Shown: positions 8,700-50,782 of the stretch, piece after piece
Layout: every line of letters begins with the position of its first letter
Numbering within the stretch: the first letter of the stretch is position 1
Source of the DNA: Eledone cirrhosa
Lineage: Eukaryota
Reading direction: 5' to 3'
Assembly: GCA_964016885.1 (NCBI GenBank)
Contig: OZ024759.1
Coordinates: 7,316,001-7,380,000 of the forward strand
DNA: 64,000 bases
Program-made: the position numbers and the translations under genes
Notes under the pieces: generated by a model
What the model was told of the DNA's origin: nothing
The model's input: only the letters and a program-made list of their open reading frames with translations
Databases searched by the model: none

Positions 8700-9140
8700 T
8701 GCAAAAGTTTTATTTAAAATTGTTGGGTTACAACAAGTAAATATTTTATAACTGATATAAAGCACTCAACAAGTTTTGGAGTAAATATACGATATTAAAC
8801 AAATGGAAACTATATTTATAAAACCATATTTATTTCATTATACATATTTCAGGGATACCATATTAAAAATATGGCATGCCTTCTTCAGATAAAATACAAT
8901 ATATAAGCAGTTTTATAAATAAATTTGACGTACCATAAATATTGATCAACTTTTATACCAAACCAACTTTTTACATAAAAGTTGATCAATATTTATGGTA
9001 CGTCAAATTTATTTATAAAACTGCTTATATATTGTATTTTATCTGAAGAAGGCATGCCATATTTTTAATATGGTATCCCTGAAATATGTATAATGAAATA
9101 AATATGGTTTTATAAATATAGTTTCCATTTGTTTAATATC
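8700..9140. mobile_element. Fold-back hammerhead-bearing element, family A (Penelope-like non-autonomous element)
   Basis: 166-bp inverted arms 8791-8956 / 8975-9140 plus a ~90-bp extra tail on the left; (TA)n on both sides; hammerhead core in each arm; relatives at 19183, 22346, 22857, 34815 and 50513. Confidence 0.75.
9037..9097 (+). ncRNA. Minimal type-I hammerhead ribozyme, family A (mirror copy at 8834-8894 on -)
   Basis: CTGAAGA (9043-9049), stem II AGG-c-ATGCCATA...TATGGTAT-c-CCT, GAAA (9081-9084), then TATGTA. Confidence 0.75.
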
Positions 9141-9538
9141 ATATATATATATATATATATATATATATATATATATATATATATATATATATATATATAT
9201 ACAAACATAAATTATCGAGATTCGCATTTCGGCCCACGAAATAACGAAAAACCATCCTCCGGGATGTGCGGCAAGTGCTCAATGATTCAGATGAACCAGA
9301 GCTATAACAAACGTTAAAGGCCAACACACTGAGACGATGGTTAAACAATCATTCGCATAACGAAAAAAAACGATCAAGTAATTCGGGTATTGAAAATTTA
9401 CCCGGACCCCTGGAAGGTTGGTAAAATCCAGTATTTGGGTTTCTGCGGCTCCTAAATCAAGTACCGTCCGCTTACATATATAATGTCAGGCTTTTGGTAA
9501 GATGATTGAACAAGGAAGCCACTTTATATATATATATA

Positions 9539-9745
9539 TTACTAATTATATCTAAATGTTTCTTCTCTCTTCATAATGTATTTTTAACTCTGATACTGGT
9601 TCAGTCTGGTTCAACTGAATTGGTCTGTCCCAGTCATTCATTGAGCAACATCGGTGAAGTTGGCACCCTTAACTCACAGTTGGGTGCGGATGCATTCATG
9701 TATATATGTGTGTGTCCGCATGTATCTGTGTGTTTCTAAATATAT
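9539..9745 (+). mobile_element. Terminal fragment of the 591-bp family D element
   Basis: Reverse complement of ~17478-17686; ends at TTCTAAATATA and runs into (TA)n, as does the copy at 18206-18322. Confidence 0.85.
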
Positions 9746-10014
9746 TATATATATATATATATATATATATATATATATATATATATATATATATATATAT
9801 ATATATACACGTATATATATATATATACATACATATATATATATATATATATATATATATATATATATATATATATATATATATATATATATTTTGAGTT
9901 TATGTTGTTTTCCCCAGTGAATTAACAACGCAACAAGGAACTGGGCATATCAGAGTAATGACAATATCATACACCTAAACAACATATGTACTTGTCTATA
10001 CCATACTAATTCAA

Positions 10015-10069
10015 ACTGCCTGAAGAGGTCACAGCCAAAGATGGCTGTCACTGAAATATATATAGCAGT
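10015..10069 (+). ncRNA. Minimal type-I hammerhead ribozyme (family E)
   Basis: ACTGC-CTGAAGA-GGT-c-ACAGCCA-aaga-TGGCTGT-c-ACT-GAAA-TATATA-TA-GCAGT; perfect 5-bp helix I; predicted cleavage after 10064. Confidence 0.85.
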
Positions 10070-10855
10070 AATAAACGAAGCTAAATTTTAATCATTTGAC
10101 TTTTATTTAACTTTATTTTATATATATATATATATTTATATATATATATATATATATATATATATATATATATACACACGTATATATATATATATATATA
10201 TATATATTTCGTTTCTGAATTTGTTTAGCAAGATTCTTTATCTGAAAACGTGTGTTGAAACCGATATTGTTATACTTTGGGAGGGTCATGTTGGGTCATA
10301 CATGTATATATACATATATACACATGTATACATATATATATACACGTATATATATAGACACGTATATATATAGACACGTATATATATGTATATATATAGA
10401 CACGTATATATATATATATATATATATATATATATATATACACGTATATATATATATATATATATATACGTGTATATATATATATGTATATATATACACG
10501 TATATATATATACATATATATAAATACATGTATATATTATATGTATATATATATATGTATATATATATATATATATATACATTATATATATATATATATA
10601 TATATATATATATATATACATTATATATATATATATATATATATATATACAGTATATATATATATATATATATATATATATATACAGTATATATATATAT
10701 ATATATATATATATATATATATATATATACATATATACATATATATATATATATATATATACATATATACATGTATATATATATACATGTATATATATAT
10801 ACATATATATATATATACATGTATATATATATATATATACATATATATATATATA

Positions 10856-12900
10856 ACTTTGAATAACTTTGAAATGTTTTGGCCAGTATTGGCCCAGGCC
10901 ATGTCTAACTTAATAGCACCACCTGGCGAAGTCTTTCAATTCAGGATTTGGGCACCATGGCCCATTCGAGAAGAGAATTACTGTTTGCGGAGACATATCC
11001 GGGTGTGGGTGGTTTGTCCGGGATTACTTGGAGGAATTTGTCCAAAGACTTCTGGAATTTTGTGTGGTCAGTTTCTGTTTTGACGTGTCCTGGTGTGATG
11101 TTGAAGAGAGCAGGGCCGATTGAGGTGAAATAATTGTGCCGTATTGTTGTTATGAGTTGCGATTTAGATTTTTGAATGGACGGTTAGCACGGGGCCCAAG
11201 CCTTGGGTGTATCTTGAAGGCGATGCCAACATCATTTGGGCAGTGATGATGGAACATTTTCCACATCATGCAGATAATATAACGCTCACGGCGACGTTGG
11301 AGTGAGTAAAGTTTCAGGTTTTCCAATCGACCCCAGTAGTCAAGGTCTGACATGCCATCTATCTTTTTCGTGATTGCCCTTTGAGGAGCTTCAAGTTTCA
11401 TGATACTTTGTTTCGTGTGGGGAGACCACAGTGGACAACAGTATTCAAGGTGTGGTCGGGCGAAAGTAGAGAAGAGAAGGATAATGGTGCGGGAATCTCT
11501 CGACTGGAAGGTTCTGAGGATCCAGGAACACATTCTGCGGGCCATGTCAACTTTGCTGCTTATATGCGTGGTCCAGCTTATGTTGCTGTCCACGGTTACT
11601 CCCAAGTCTCTGATGTTGTTAGATGCCACGAGAGTTTCCCCGGAGGGAAGGGAGTACGGGAGTTTCAGAGCATCCTCTTTTCCAAAGTGGATCAGTTCGA
11701 ATTTGTCTTCGTTCAGTAACATGTTGTTCTTTTCTGCCCATTGGGTAACAGCCAGTAGGTCTGACTGAAGGCTTATCCGGTCATCCACGCCATTGATGAC
11801 CTTTTGGAGCTTGGAATCATCAGCGAAAATTTAATGTTGCTGTGTTTGATGGTGTCAGTGATGTCATTAATATAGATGATGAAGAGAAGTGGGCCCAACA
11901 CAGTGCCTTGTGGGACTCCACTACTGACTTTGGCTGGGCTTGATTTGACTCCCTCAACTACAACATGTTGGGTTCTGTTTGACAGGAAGCTCTTGATCCA
12001 CTGCAGCAGCTTTCCAGTGACACCAATATTGGACAGCTTTCTCAGTAGAATGTTATGATCAACCCTGTCAAAGGCCTTGCTGAAATCAAGGTAGATAACA
12101 TCAGTGTTGGAACCCTCTCCCAAGGCTCTCAAAATGTCATCAAAGTGATGCAGTAGTTGCGTCAGGCAATCCCTTCCATTACGGAATCCATGCTGGTTGG
12201 AGTTCAGCATATTGTTACTCTCAAGGAAGTGGTCATTCGCGATCTCACCACTCGCTCAAATACCTTAATGATATGAGAGGTGAGTGAGATTGGACGGTAA
12301 TTCACGGCAAGGGATTTGTTTCCCCTTTTTGAAAACTGGGACAACAGACTGGGATAGAAGGTTTTCTGGCACATATCCAGCATCCAGTGAGTTCCGCCAC
12401 AGATTGGCAAGAGGAGAAGCAAGTTGGTGTTGACCACGCCTTCAAGACACAAGCAGGGAACCTATCGGGACCTACTGCTGAATTATGCTTGATTTCCTTT
12501 ATTGCCGCCAAGACATCAGGGGCGCCAAACGTTATGTCCGATAAGGTGTAATGGGGAGTAACATCGCCGATACAGCCCAGATCGGCCATATCAGGATTGC
12601 TGAAAACAGAGCAGTATTGTTTCTGCAGTATCTCACCCATGGTTTTAGCATTGTCTTGAAGAGTGCCATTTTCATCAATTAGAGGGCCAACAGTAGAGCC
12701 AGTGATTTTGTGTTTTTTTGCAAATGAAAAGAACACTTTGGGATTGAGTTTGATCTTCTCAATGGCCCAGGCCTCTTCAGCTCTTCTCTGATTGTTGATG
12801 AGGGACATTATGTTGTTTTGGAGGTTATGTTTTTTTAATCTCTAGTGATGAAATGGCAGTCAAGTTGATGTGTTGCTGCTGACAGTATTTCAGCTTGTTA
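10856..12900 (-). mobile_element. 5'-truncated, frameshifted CR1-group LINE (RT pseudogene)
   Basis: ORF pieces 12302-12808, 11773-12210 and 11150-11788 with NYRPISLTS, QHGFR, YLDFSKAFDRV, GVPQGTVLGPLLF, frameshifted FADD, YSLQRRRERY. Confidence 0.9.
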
Positions 12901-49365: not shown

Positions 49366-49545
49366 ATCATCATCATTTCCATTTAGTGTCAATTCTTCAA
49401 TGCTTGCATGGGTTAGAGGGGTCGTCCATGCTGGGAGGCAAATTTAGCTATGTCACACCTTGCTCCGATGTAAATTTGTCCAGGTATTTTAGAGCTGGAT
49501 GCTCTTCCTAACCCCAACCACATTTTAAATAGTAAAAAACCTCTT
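49366..49545 (-). mobile_element. Old SINE/RTE 3' tail fragment
   Basis: Diverged GGTTAGGAAGAGCATCCAGCT and CCCATGCAAGCATTG motifs on minus strand. Confidence 0.7.
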
Positions 49546-49785
49546 ACACAATAACAAAACTCCACTTTCACACACATACATACAAATACACACACATATA
49601 TACACAAACATACATGTATATACATACAGTAATGTCATCACAGTATACCATATATCCTATCAGCCTCTCTCATCTAGAGGTTTCTGTTTACAACACAATA
49701 ATAGTTACTATACACACATATACACACATACACACACATCAATATGGTCATCATCATCATCACGGTTATAATATAACATATATAC

Positions 49786-50128
49786 AGGCACATGGCTTAG
49801 TGGTTAAAGCATTGGCCTTGCAATCGAAAGGTTGTGAGTTCAATTCTCAGACCAGGTGATGTGTTGTTTCCTTGAACAAGACACTTTATTTCACATTGCT
49901 CCAGTTTACTCAGCTGTAGAAATGAGATGATAGGACTGGGGTCCATATCATTCCACTGCAAAGTGGTCATGTAGGTGCCACGGTAAAATAAAGCACCCAG
50001 CCCACACTGTAAATGAGGTTGGTGTTCGGAAGGGCATCCAGCTGTAGAAATCAAGCCAGAATTAGTTCCCGTCCCACCCTTGCAAGCAGGGAAAAGCGGA
50101 CGTAAAATGAAATGAAATGATGAAATGA
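49786..50128 (+). mobile_element. CORE-type SINE
   Basis: Near identical to 22455-22797. Confidence 0.92.
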
Positions 50129-50171
50129 TACACAAACACATCATACTGTTATCATACATACATAACATATA

Positions 50172-50512
50172 TTCATTCATTCATTCATTTTATTTTACGT
50201 CCGCTTTTCCCTGCTTGCAAGGGTGGGATGGGAACTGATTCTGGCTTTATTTCTACAGCTGGATGCCCTTCCTAACACCAACCTCATTTACAGTGAGTGC
50301 TGGCTGCTTTTTTGCCGTGGCACCTCCACGACCACTTTGCAGTGGAATGATAGGGACCCCAGTCCCTATCATCTCATTTCTACAGCTGAGTAAACTGGAG
50401 CAATGTGAAATAAAGTGTCTTGCTCAAGGAAACAACACATCACCCGGTCTGAGAATTGAACTCACAACCTTTCGATTGCAAGCCCAATGCTCTAACCACT
50501 AAGCCATGTGCC
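50172..50512 (-). mobile_element. CORE-type SINE
   Basis: Reverse complement of same family; tail-to-tail with the 49786 copy. Confidence 0.92.
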
Positions 50513-50782
50513 TATGCAGAAGGGATATTCAATTTGTTGGTAATTCAACAAATATAAATGTTTATAACTGATTCAGAGCACTCGACAGGTTTTCTGGAGT
50601 ATATATTCAATGATATTAAATAAATGGAAAATATATTTATAAAAACATATTTATTCTATTATATATATTTCAAGGGTACCAAAATTTTGGTACACTTTCA
50701 TCAGATAAAATACAAAGTGTGTTTTATAAATATTTGACATAACCAAGGAGAATAAACCTTAACGGTTCAAGTTTTTCTTTTA
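50513..50782 (-). mobile_element. Family A-related element; hammerhead at 50657-50710 (-)
   Basis: Minus strand TTAT-CTGATGA-AAG-t-GTACCAAA-at-TTTGGTAC-c-CTT-GAAA-TATATA-TAAT. Confidence 0.78.

What the first reader, a model, noticed from the sequence alone, without database searches (positions are those of the whole stretch)
8700..50782. Population of hammerhead-ribozyme mini-retroelements hidden between (TA)n tracts
Seen: many short unique islands embedded in (TA)n contain a hammerhead core (CUGANGA, helix II, GAAA, short palindromic helix III, NUH). Cores lie at 8834/9037, 10015, 17127, 17718, 18985, 19338, 21592, 22903/22969, 25510/25558, 25795, 29438, 35052 and 50657, plus a half core near 24235. 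They fall into at least seven families with otherwise unrelated sequence, mostly in fold-back or tandem arrangements. Established: Penelope-like elements carry minimal type-I hammerheads in their pseudo-LTRs and often insert with inverted or partial-tandem pLTRs; metazoan retrozymes are non-coding hammerhead retroelements. Inference: a diverse, non-autonomous, (TA)n-targeting PLE/retrozyme system mobilised in trans, since no PLE ORF is in the window.
Basis: partly seen in the sequence, partly recalled or inferred. Interest (0 to 1): 0.9.

Follow-up and report, generated by a model that had tools for sequence, protein, structure and literature searches.

The report
Penelope ends carry twin priming hairpins
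The hammerhead islands are real, but most are cut-short ends of protein-coding Penelope-like jumping genes that land in TA repeats and three are small non-coding passengers; most share a paired RNA hairpin, not found in the papers searched, that likely tells the enzyme where to start copying.

Summary
The hammerheads are real: 13 complete type-I motifs in the window against 0.05 in shuffles. Round-coordinate sampling suggests roughly 250,000 in this 3-Gb genome, so the window is not special.

The reading 'non-autonomous mini-elements' holds for 4 of 16 listed cores. Twelve cores and the half core are 5'-truncated ends of RT + GIY-YIG Penelope-like elements (Hydra clade; one Neptune-type). Families D (591 nt), C2 (~1.3 kb) and F (420 nt) are non-coding tandem retrozymes. 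All these kinds are published, and the scan reached a similar verdict on another genome.

Two additions came out. First, fold-back insertions carry one long and one short end (112 of 117; none short-short). Second, a bulged hairpin (RCUC...GAGY) lies 6-11 nt beyond each start site of Hydra families and of D and C2, but not of F or the Neptune-type families. It recurs, often twice and with covariation, in 35 of 43 Hydra-type families from metagenomes. It likely positions the reverse transcriptase and names Hydra as the mover of D and C2. Cleavage, expression and hairpin function are untested.

The parts
8701..9140 (.). Family A1 fold-back, 3' end of a Hydra-clade PLE. Long arm on - (core 8888, predicted cut after 8839, hairpin 8764-8782), short arm on + (core 9043, predicted cut after 9092)
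9537..9747 (+). Family D fragment ending at the long start site, with first hairpin 9587-9646; no hammerhead
9893..10118 (+). Family C, 3' end of a Hydra-clade PLE, core 10020, short end; 9893-9908 is a 16-nt inverted long end
   Evidence: (L278)
17059..18321 (-). Family D: two head-to-tail 591-nt non-coding units with U3:A8 hammerheads (17800, 17209); hairpins 17577-17637, 17456-17472, 18047-18063; short end at 17059, inverted long arm 18206-18321
18949..19154 (-). Family C2, 3' end of a ~1.3-kb non-coding tandem element; core 19052 with helix I damaged in this copy; short end
19183..19436 (+). Subfamily A3, core 19344, short end; assigned to Hydra by likeness to A and by the hairpin in long copies, ORF link not shown directly
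21431..22020 (.). Family E1, two ends facing each other: + copy 21431-21556 (core lacks its first base, hairpin 21495-21513) and - copy 21580-22020 (core 21636); 3' end of a Hydra-clade PLE
   Evidence: (L284)
22350..22445 (-). A2 tail piece with hairpin 22410-22429, broken off by a tRNA-headed SINE
22860..23160 (.). Family A2 fold-back: short arm on - (core 22955), long arm on + (core 22975, hairpin 23081-23100)
24140..24272 (-). Family H: 3' half of a U3:A8 hammerhead plus tail, long end; 3' end of a Hydra-clade PLE
   Evidence: (L283)
25498..25686 (.). Family E2 fold-back: core 25553 on - intact (helix I compensated against E1), core 25558 on + with helix I lost, hairpin 25624-25642
25755..26075 (.). 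Family B fold-back: short arm on - (core 25855), long arm on + (hairpin 25996-26020); 3' end of a Hydra-clade PLE
   Evidence: (L281)
29084..29692 (.). Family F fold-back of a 420-nt non-coding tandem unit; core 29441 on +; no Hydra hairpin
34816..34995 (-). A4 tail piece with hairpin 34880-34899; no hammerhead
35030..35170 (+). Family G, minimal hammerhead 35054; 3' end of a Neptune-type PLE; no Hydra hairpin
   Evidence: (L285)
50516..50782 (-). Subfamily A4, core 50704, long end, hairpin 50580-50600; Hydra C-terminus upstream in one other copy

Best explanation
The islands are insertion footprints of Penelope-like retroelements in (TA)n: most are truncated ends of protein-coding Hydra-clade (one Neptune-type) elements and three are non-coding tandem retrozymes, and a bulged hairpin just beyond each of two copy-start sites likely positions the Hydra reverse transcriptase, which would also move D and C2. 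Shown: a full-length family A element is hammerhead, tail, start codon, ~742-aa RT + GIY-YIG ORF, 1.3-1.9 kb of 3' region, hammerhead again. Genomic copies stop at two fixed sites 3' of the hammerhead cut (short and long), next to (TA)n; fold-backs have one of each; a hairpin follows each site. From published work on a Poseidon PLE: both target strands are nicked and extended, from two internal RNA sites that bound the tail. Inferred: one protein unit binds each hairpin on one RNA, so one target strand is primed at the short site and the other at the long site. The two same-sense cDNAs then join 5' to 5', giving an inverted repeat with exactly one tail. Inferred: short islands lack the second hairpin and are dead ends, whereas tandem D and C2 keep both. 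Untested: hammerhead cleavage, circular RNA, protein binding.
For: ORF links: 19 of 20 loci picked from 112 RT matches for long open frames or high identity carry an A-type hammerhead end downstream on the same strand. C = L278, H = L283, E = L284, B = L281 (821-aa open frame), G = L285. Hydra marks as listed in PMC8557442: DKT in 20 of 20 loci, CxCX5C in 18 of 20. Two ends per family, mostly followed by TA. Fold-backs: 112 long+short, 0 short+short, 1 long+long (an internal pLTR), 4 unclassified, of 117; inward-facing neighbours were mixed. D: 9 long+short of 10, the tenth a false end. Hairpin at 10 of 10 Hydra start sites and 4 of 4 in D and C2, 0 of 4 in G, F and another Neptune family; background 1-12% of positions. 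Families not used to define it: three own-genome families show it, one of them twice and followed by a Hydra ORF; 0 of 5 families tied to Neptune or Poseidon ORFs. Metagenome Hydra-type loci: 35 of 43 families have it, 21 twice, against 4.1 and 0.5 in shuffles; first upper pair C-G 26, U-A 25 of 62.
Against: The hairpin was found after the fact in the same sequences as the 14-of-14 count. Two further own-genome clusters match the pattern at places with no mapped start site. In metagenome loci only 3 of 6 comparable copy pairs end 4-6 nt before a hairpin. Related sequences inflate the permutation test, and the copy with most hairpins was taken per family. Several hairpins fold weakly alone (-0.5 to -2.6 kcal/mol). 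In the Poseidon PLE, start site did not differ between strands in vitro, so the strict asymmetry is not explained by that work. F gave only 2 clean long+short pairs among 8 noisy ones. ORF links for A3 and A4 are thin. Clade names rest on motifs, not on a tree with reference proteins.
Confidence: 0.75

Rival explanations
1. All islands are a population of non-autonomous mini-elements or retrozymes copied as short units in trans.
For: True for D, C2 and F. H has recurring junction geometries (up to 6 of 44 alike) and E up to 3 of 19. Most copies of every family are short.
Against: A, B, C, E, G and H continue into PLE ORFs. Junctions are nearly all distinct in A, B and C. The short copies lack the second hairpin.
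Confidence: 0.08
2. The families are as described, but the hairpin works in DNA, as an endonuclease recognition or strand-resolution site, and not as an RNA start signal.
For: The Penelope tail was reported to be needed for endonuclease recognition (cited in PMC11167929). The lower stem is a short inverted repeat that exists on both strands.
Against: The upper stem covaries and accepts G-U pairs, and the 2-nt bulge keeps its register. The second hairpin is absent from short integrated copies, yet they end 6-11 nt before it, which fits a template signal.
Confidence: 0.12
3. D, C2 and F spread by hammerhead cleavage, circular RNA and a generic reverse transcriptase such as the RTE-type LINE in this window, or by unequal crossover, with no PLE enzyme.
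For: Arrays of 99%-identical units fit a rolling-circle template. Open LINE ORFs lie in the window.
Against: D copies stop at two fixed sites 3' of the predicted cut and not at it, mostly next to TA, with inverted arm and one tail. D and C2 carry both Hydra hairpins. A circular template is still compatible with a PLE enzyme.
Confidence: 0.05

Closest known systems
Hydra-clade EN+ Penelope-like elements (Craig et al. 2021, PMC8557442; includes Hydra-1_Obim from Octopus bimaculoides)
   Same: Single RT + C-terminal GIY-YIG ORF with DKT, CxCX5C, CxxC and CxH; hammerhead in the pLTR; (TA)n target; inverted 5' arm; tail often at one end.
   Different: Units are ~3.9 kb with 1.3-1.9 kb 3' regions (published: generally <3 kb); tails 65-100 nt (published for PLEs: 30-40); very high copy number; twin hairpin and strict one-tail rule not stated in the passages read.
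Non-LTR retrozymes (Cervera and de la Pena 2020, PMC7229834; Li et al. 2026, bioRxiv 10.64898/2026.07.22.740005)
   Same: D and F are non-coding head-to-tail repeats with one type-I hammerhead per unit; 420 and 591 nt lie within the 51-972 bp range of the 2026 preprint; PLE mobilisation already proposed.
   Different: D has a U3:A8 core; C2 is ~1.3 kb; partner clade is indicated by a shared signal and insertion signature, not by sequence homology; RNA and circles not observed here.
Minimal PLE hammerheads (Cervera and de la Pena 2014, PMC4209133)
   Same: Type I, short palindromic helix III, U3-A8 variant, mostly single motifs from truncated PLEs, opposite-strand pairs 100-700 bp apart.
   Different: Estimated number (~2.5e5) far above the 4,000-9,000 called remarkable there and above the 120,000 in axolotl; U-U at the base of helix II is common.
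PAc, Poseidon PLE of the green anole (Frangieh et al. 2024, PMC11167929)
   Same: Two internal start sites 3' of the hammerhead bound the tail; AT-rich target; both strands extended.
   Different: PAc starts inside an AC-rich stem-loop in the ORF with no strand preference in vitro; here starts lie just 5' of a conserved bulged hairpin in the 5' UTR, and genomic fold-backs pair one short with one long start.

Membership tests
Type-I hammerhead ribozyme | Core CUGANGA (or U3:A8), GAAA, UH with helices I-III | tested here: met
   13 of 16 listed cores; shuffles 0.05; 3 marginal
Type-I hammerhead ribozyme | Match to an Rfam hammerhead model | tested here: not met
   None listed for three islands at E<=10; none in the 150 of 211 rows shown for the whole window. 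Minimal variants are expected to miss these models (own knowledge)
Type-I hammerhead ribozyme | Self-cleavage as monomer or dimer | not testable with these tools
   Needs a bench assay; published PLE hammerheads are weak or protein-assisted
Hydra-clade PLE (A, B, C, E, H) | RT + C-terminal GIY-YIG ORF joined to the hammerhead end | tested here: met
   Pfam scores no family on the two Hydra queries, so the call rests on motifs and tblastn
Hydra-clade PLE (A, B, C, E, H) | DKT, CxCX5C linker, CxxC and CxH, no CCHH | tested here: met
   Family A: DKT 20 of 20 loci, CxCX5C 18 of 20; B, C, E, H read by eye; absence of CCHH by eye only
Hydra-clade PLE (A, B, C, E, H) | Insertion into (TA)n | tested here: met
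   e.g. H 29 of 32 short ends and 36 of 38 long ends, C 21 of 24 short ends followed by TA
Hydra-clade PLE (A, B, C, E, H) | Placement in the clade by RT phylogeny with reference proteins | not tested
   No reference proteins were held as usable sequences
Neptune-type PLE (G) | DKG, CX2-5CxxC linker, CCHH in the endonuclease | tested here: met
   Read in the frameshifted L285 frames; one locus; Neptune versus Nematis not resolved
Non-LTR retrozyme (D, F, C2) | Non-coding head-to-tail units, one hammerhead each | tested here: met
   D period 591, F 420, longest ATG frames 75 and 97 aa; C2 direct repeats 1.0-1.3 kb apart with no PLE protein match inside, 3 of 5 loci fetched
Non-LTR retrozyme (D, F, C2) | Expressed as linear and circular RNA | not testable with these tools
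   No RNA holder listed
MITE (TIR DNA transposon) | Fixed terminal inverted repeats and fixed internal length | tested here: not met
   Arms end at two different sites and junctions vary

The most novel reading that the evidence does not exclude
Hydra-clade Penelope elements carry a clade-wide pair of bulged RNA hairpins that a dimeric reverse transcriptase reads to prime the two target strands at two different sites of one RNA. This fixes the one-tail inverted insertion, and non-coding retrozymes D and C2 parasitise the enzyme by keeping that signal. It would be a defined template-recognition element for a telomerase-related RT and a direct assignment of an animal retrozyme to its mover.
Probability: 0.5. 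Interest if true: 0.72.

Novelty: new member of a known kind. Interest (0 to 1): 0.5.

Why it matters
How Penelope-like RTs, the sister group of telomerase, choose their RNA and start site is open, and which enzyme moves animal retrozymes has been argued only from co-occurrence and homology. A short conserved hairpin at both start sites, shared by a 99%-identical 591-nt passenger and by coding elements with long open frames in the same genome, gives a small and direct test. The islands themselves are ordinary debris; at an estimated one hammerhead per 12 kb they are a large and probably under-annotated part of this genome.

Tried and rejected
Rfam scan of the whole window: swamped by TA-driven miRNA matches; three islands rescanned gave no hammerhead family. 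RNA runs for D: no RNA holder listed; four contig-only runs hold D-like DNA but cannot show ends or expression. Partner search for D and F by weak blastn against the loci held at that point: only diverged D and F subfamilies, no coding pLTR. Long/short test for F: signatures too short, 8 pairs, 2 clean. First fold-back count had 25 long+long pairs in A, nearly all from TA left in the reference; repeated with trimmed references. Upstream-extent script failed twice. Flanks of named Hydra proteins from other animals were not obtained, so hosts of the outside loci are unknown. Rejected: MITE origin; U3:A8 as new (described in PMC4209133); Hydra in octopus as new (Hydra-1_Obim); the endonuclease match in L098 as belonging to C (it belongs to H); C2 as a coding element; the window as a special hotspot.
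Full report
Setting. The window lies on contig C20 of a 3.0-Gb animal genome. The best named relative of the family A protein is from Argonauta hians at 39% identity, so an octopod host is my inference. (TA)n makes up 11.7% of the window against 4.3% of 40 sampled 10-kb regions.

Observation. A strict type-I scan finds 8 motifs against 0.005-0.025 in shuffles. 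A wider scan finds 13 against 0.05. E1 and E2 differ by a compensated pair in helix I. The same scan gives 33 motifs in 400 kb taken at round coordinates, with 1 in the reversed and 1 in the shuffled control. That is about 80 per Mb, or roughly 250,000 per genome; the window's ~200 per Mb tracks its TA share. Ten of the 33 have U3:A8 cores.

Coding families. No PLE protein matches the window, but 13 of the 40 sampled regions have one and the GIY-YIG search had 10,595 candidates. First-look candidates per family: A1 871, A4 2685, B 139, C 42, E 1044, G 592, H 69; these are not copy numbers. In L051 an inverted family A end joins a 5'-truncated RT + GIY-YIG ORF, which runs on through ~1.9 kb to the same hammerhead. 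That RT had 42,196 candidates; all 112 scored were >=92% identical, many with 735-779 aa open. Of 20 of these that I chose for long frames or high identity, 19 carry an A1/A2 end downstream; several also have it directly before the start codon, period ~3.87 kb. C (L278), H (L283) and B (L281) flank their own Hydra-type ORFs on both sides, E (L284) ends one, and G (L285) flanks a frameshifted Neptune-type ORF. A4 has a Hydra C-terminus upstream in one of 20 loci. A3 is placed by likeness only. The motifs match the Hydra definition.

Non-coding families. D forms head-to-tail arrays with period 591 at 98-99% identity, 766 candidates; longest ATG frame 75 aa. F has period 420, 2021 candidates, longest frame 97 aa. 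C2 has 2693 candidates and direct repeats 1298, 1321 and 1016 nt apart with no PLE protein match inside, in 3 of 5 loci fetched. These account for 4 of the 16 cores.

Ends. Each family stops at two fixed sites 3' of the predicted cut, usually against TA; G showed one within the reference used. Among 117 fold-backs of A, B, C, E and H in all own-genome loci fetched, 112 have one long and one short end, none two short, one two long (an internal pLTR) and 4 are unclassified. Inward-facing neighbours were mixed: 66 long-long, 36 long-short, 4 short-short, 2 other (that run still held TA artefacts in A). D follows the rule in 9 of 10, the tenth being a false end. F is inconclusive. The loci are best matches to window copies, not a random sample. 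Junction geometry differs in nearly every copy of A, B and C, less so in E and H. Copies do not end at the hammerhead cut, which fits an uncut or circular template (inference).

The hairpin. Six to eleven A/U-rich bases 3' of a start site comes RCUC, an upper stem, a 2-nt bulge (UU, UC or UA) and GAGY. It is present at 10 of 10 mapped sites of Hydra families and 4 of 4 of D and C2, and at 0 of 4 of G, F and a second Neptune family. I noticed it in these sequences, so this count is not independent. Independent checks: of own-genome clusters not used before, three show it, two of them just past a TA-marked short end; the third has two hairpins and is followed by a Hydra ORF in a region sampled at round coordinates. 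Five clusters tied to Neptune or Poseidon ORFs lack it; one Hydra-linked cluster could not be tested; two others match at unexplained places. In 78 metagenome loci with 32-39% identity to the family A protein, 43 distinct hammerhead-plus-flank families were found; 35 have the pattern within 230 nt of the cut and 21 have it at least twice, against 4.1 and 0.5 in shuffles. With no pairing demanded, upper pairs 1-3 form in 52 of 62, 42 of 61 and 38 of 50, against permutation means of 40, 27 and 20 (0 of 5000 reach the observed); shifted registers give 6-8 of 62. Three of six comparable copy pairs there end 4-6 nt before a hairpin. The pattern can also be read by eye at the end of the published Hydra-2_Amil consensus.

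Mechanism. Shown: anatomy, two ends, one-tail rule, hairpin position and conservation. Taken from PMC11167929: nicking and extension of both strands, two internal starts, hammerhead cleavage not needed in vitro, predicted protein dimer. Inferred: each hairpin anchors one RT, the two target strands are primed at different sites of one RNA, and the cDNAs join 5' to 5'. Inverted arms that consist of the tail alone fit this. Truncated islands never receive the second hairpin and are likely dead; D and C2 arrays keep both. F's hammerhead resembles those of Neptune-linked families, so a Neptune mover is a guess. Confidence: family assignments 0.9, hairpin as start signal 0.65, Hydra moving D and C2 0.75.

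Literature seen. PMC8557442: passages, section 11, supplement passages; its main text has no 'hairpin' or 'bulge'. PMC4209133: parts 1-2 of 4. PMC7229834: passages. PMC11167929: passages and part 2 of the main section. Li et al. 2026: parts 1-3 of 5 and a term search; its supplements were not seen. PMC13282606: passages; Penelope-like elements are annotated in Octopus vulgaris and 'ribozyme' does not occur. Searches for a prior account of the hairpin or of octopus hammerheads found none; subscription papers, Repbase and Dfam were not searched.

Verdict. Observation confirmed, interpretation partly supported. New members of known kinds, with one apparently undescribed and testable signal. Interest 0.5.

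Noticed in passing
window 30537-33854 (+) and 37035-40526 (-): Two 96%-identical LINE copies facing each other, with open frames of 1105 and 1163 aa (AP endonuclease, RT, PHD-like finger). 'RTE-type' is my recalled label.
   Followed up: partly
window 14870-15175, 22445-22800, 49773-50513, 52300-52640: A SINE with a tRNA-like head (Rfam tRNA 29-31 bits) whose 3' part matches the 3' UTR of that LINE at about 80%: a LINE-SINE pair.
   Followed up: no
window 9201-9524 (-): 3' end of another repeat family with the Hydra-type hairpin at 9277-9302 and no hammerhead in this copy; present in 4 of 40 sampled regions.
   Followed up: partly
   Followed up: partly
window 15968-16556 and 24371-24691: Related TA-flanked islands with an imperfect hammerhead-like core near 24484; possibly Naiad ends.
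   Followed up: no
window 21431-22020; L158, L284: Family E ends facing each other across a few A/T bases recur at other loci, as if E inserts next to its own end.
   Followed up: no
window 35030-35170: All 40 scored copies of G are 100% identical over 141 nt: a very recent burst.
   Followed up: partly
L057:6699-7158 and L255:83-569: Two more tandem hammerhead repeats, periods 459 and 486 nt, likely further retrozyme families.
   Followed up: no
L193:1874-2334: A D subfamily at 73% identity that keeps the U3:A8 core and helices with changed sequence.
   Followed up: partly
window 10859-12894 and 13677-14702: Broken fragments of a second LINE type, one spanning the 200-N gap at 13839-14038.
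   Followed up: no
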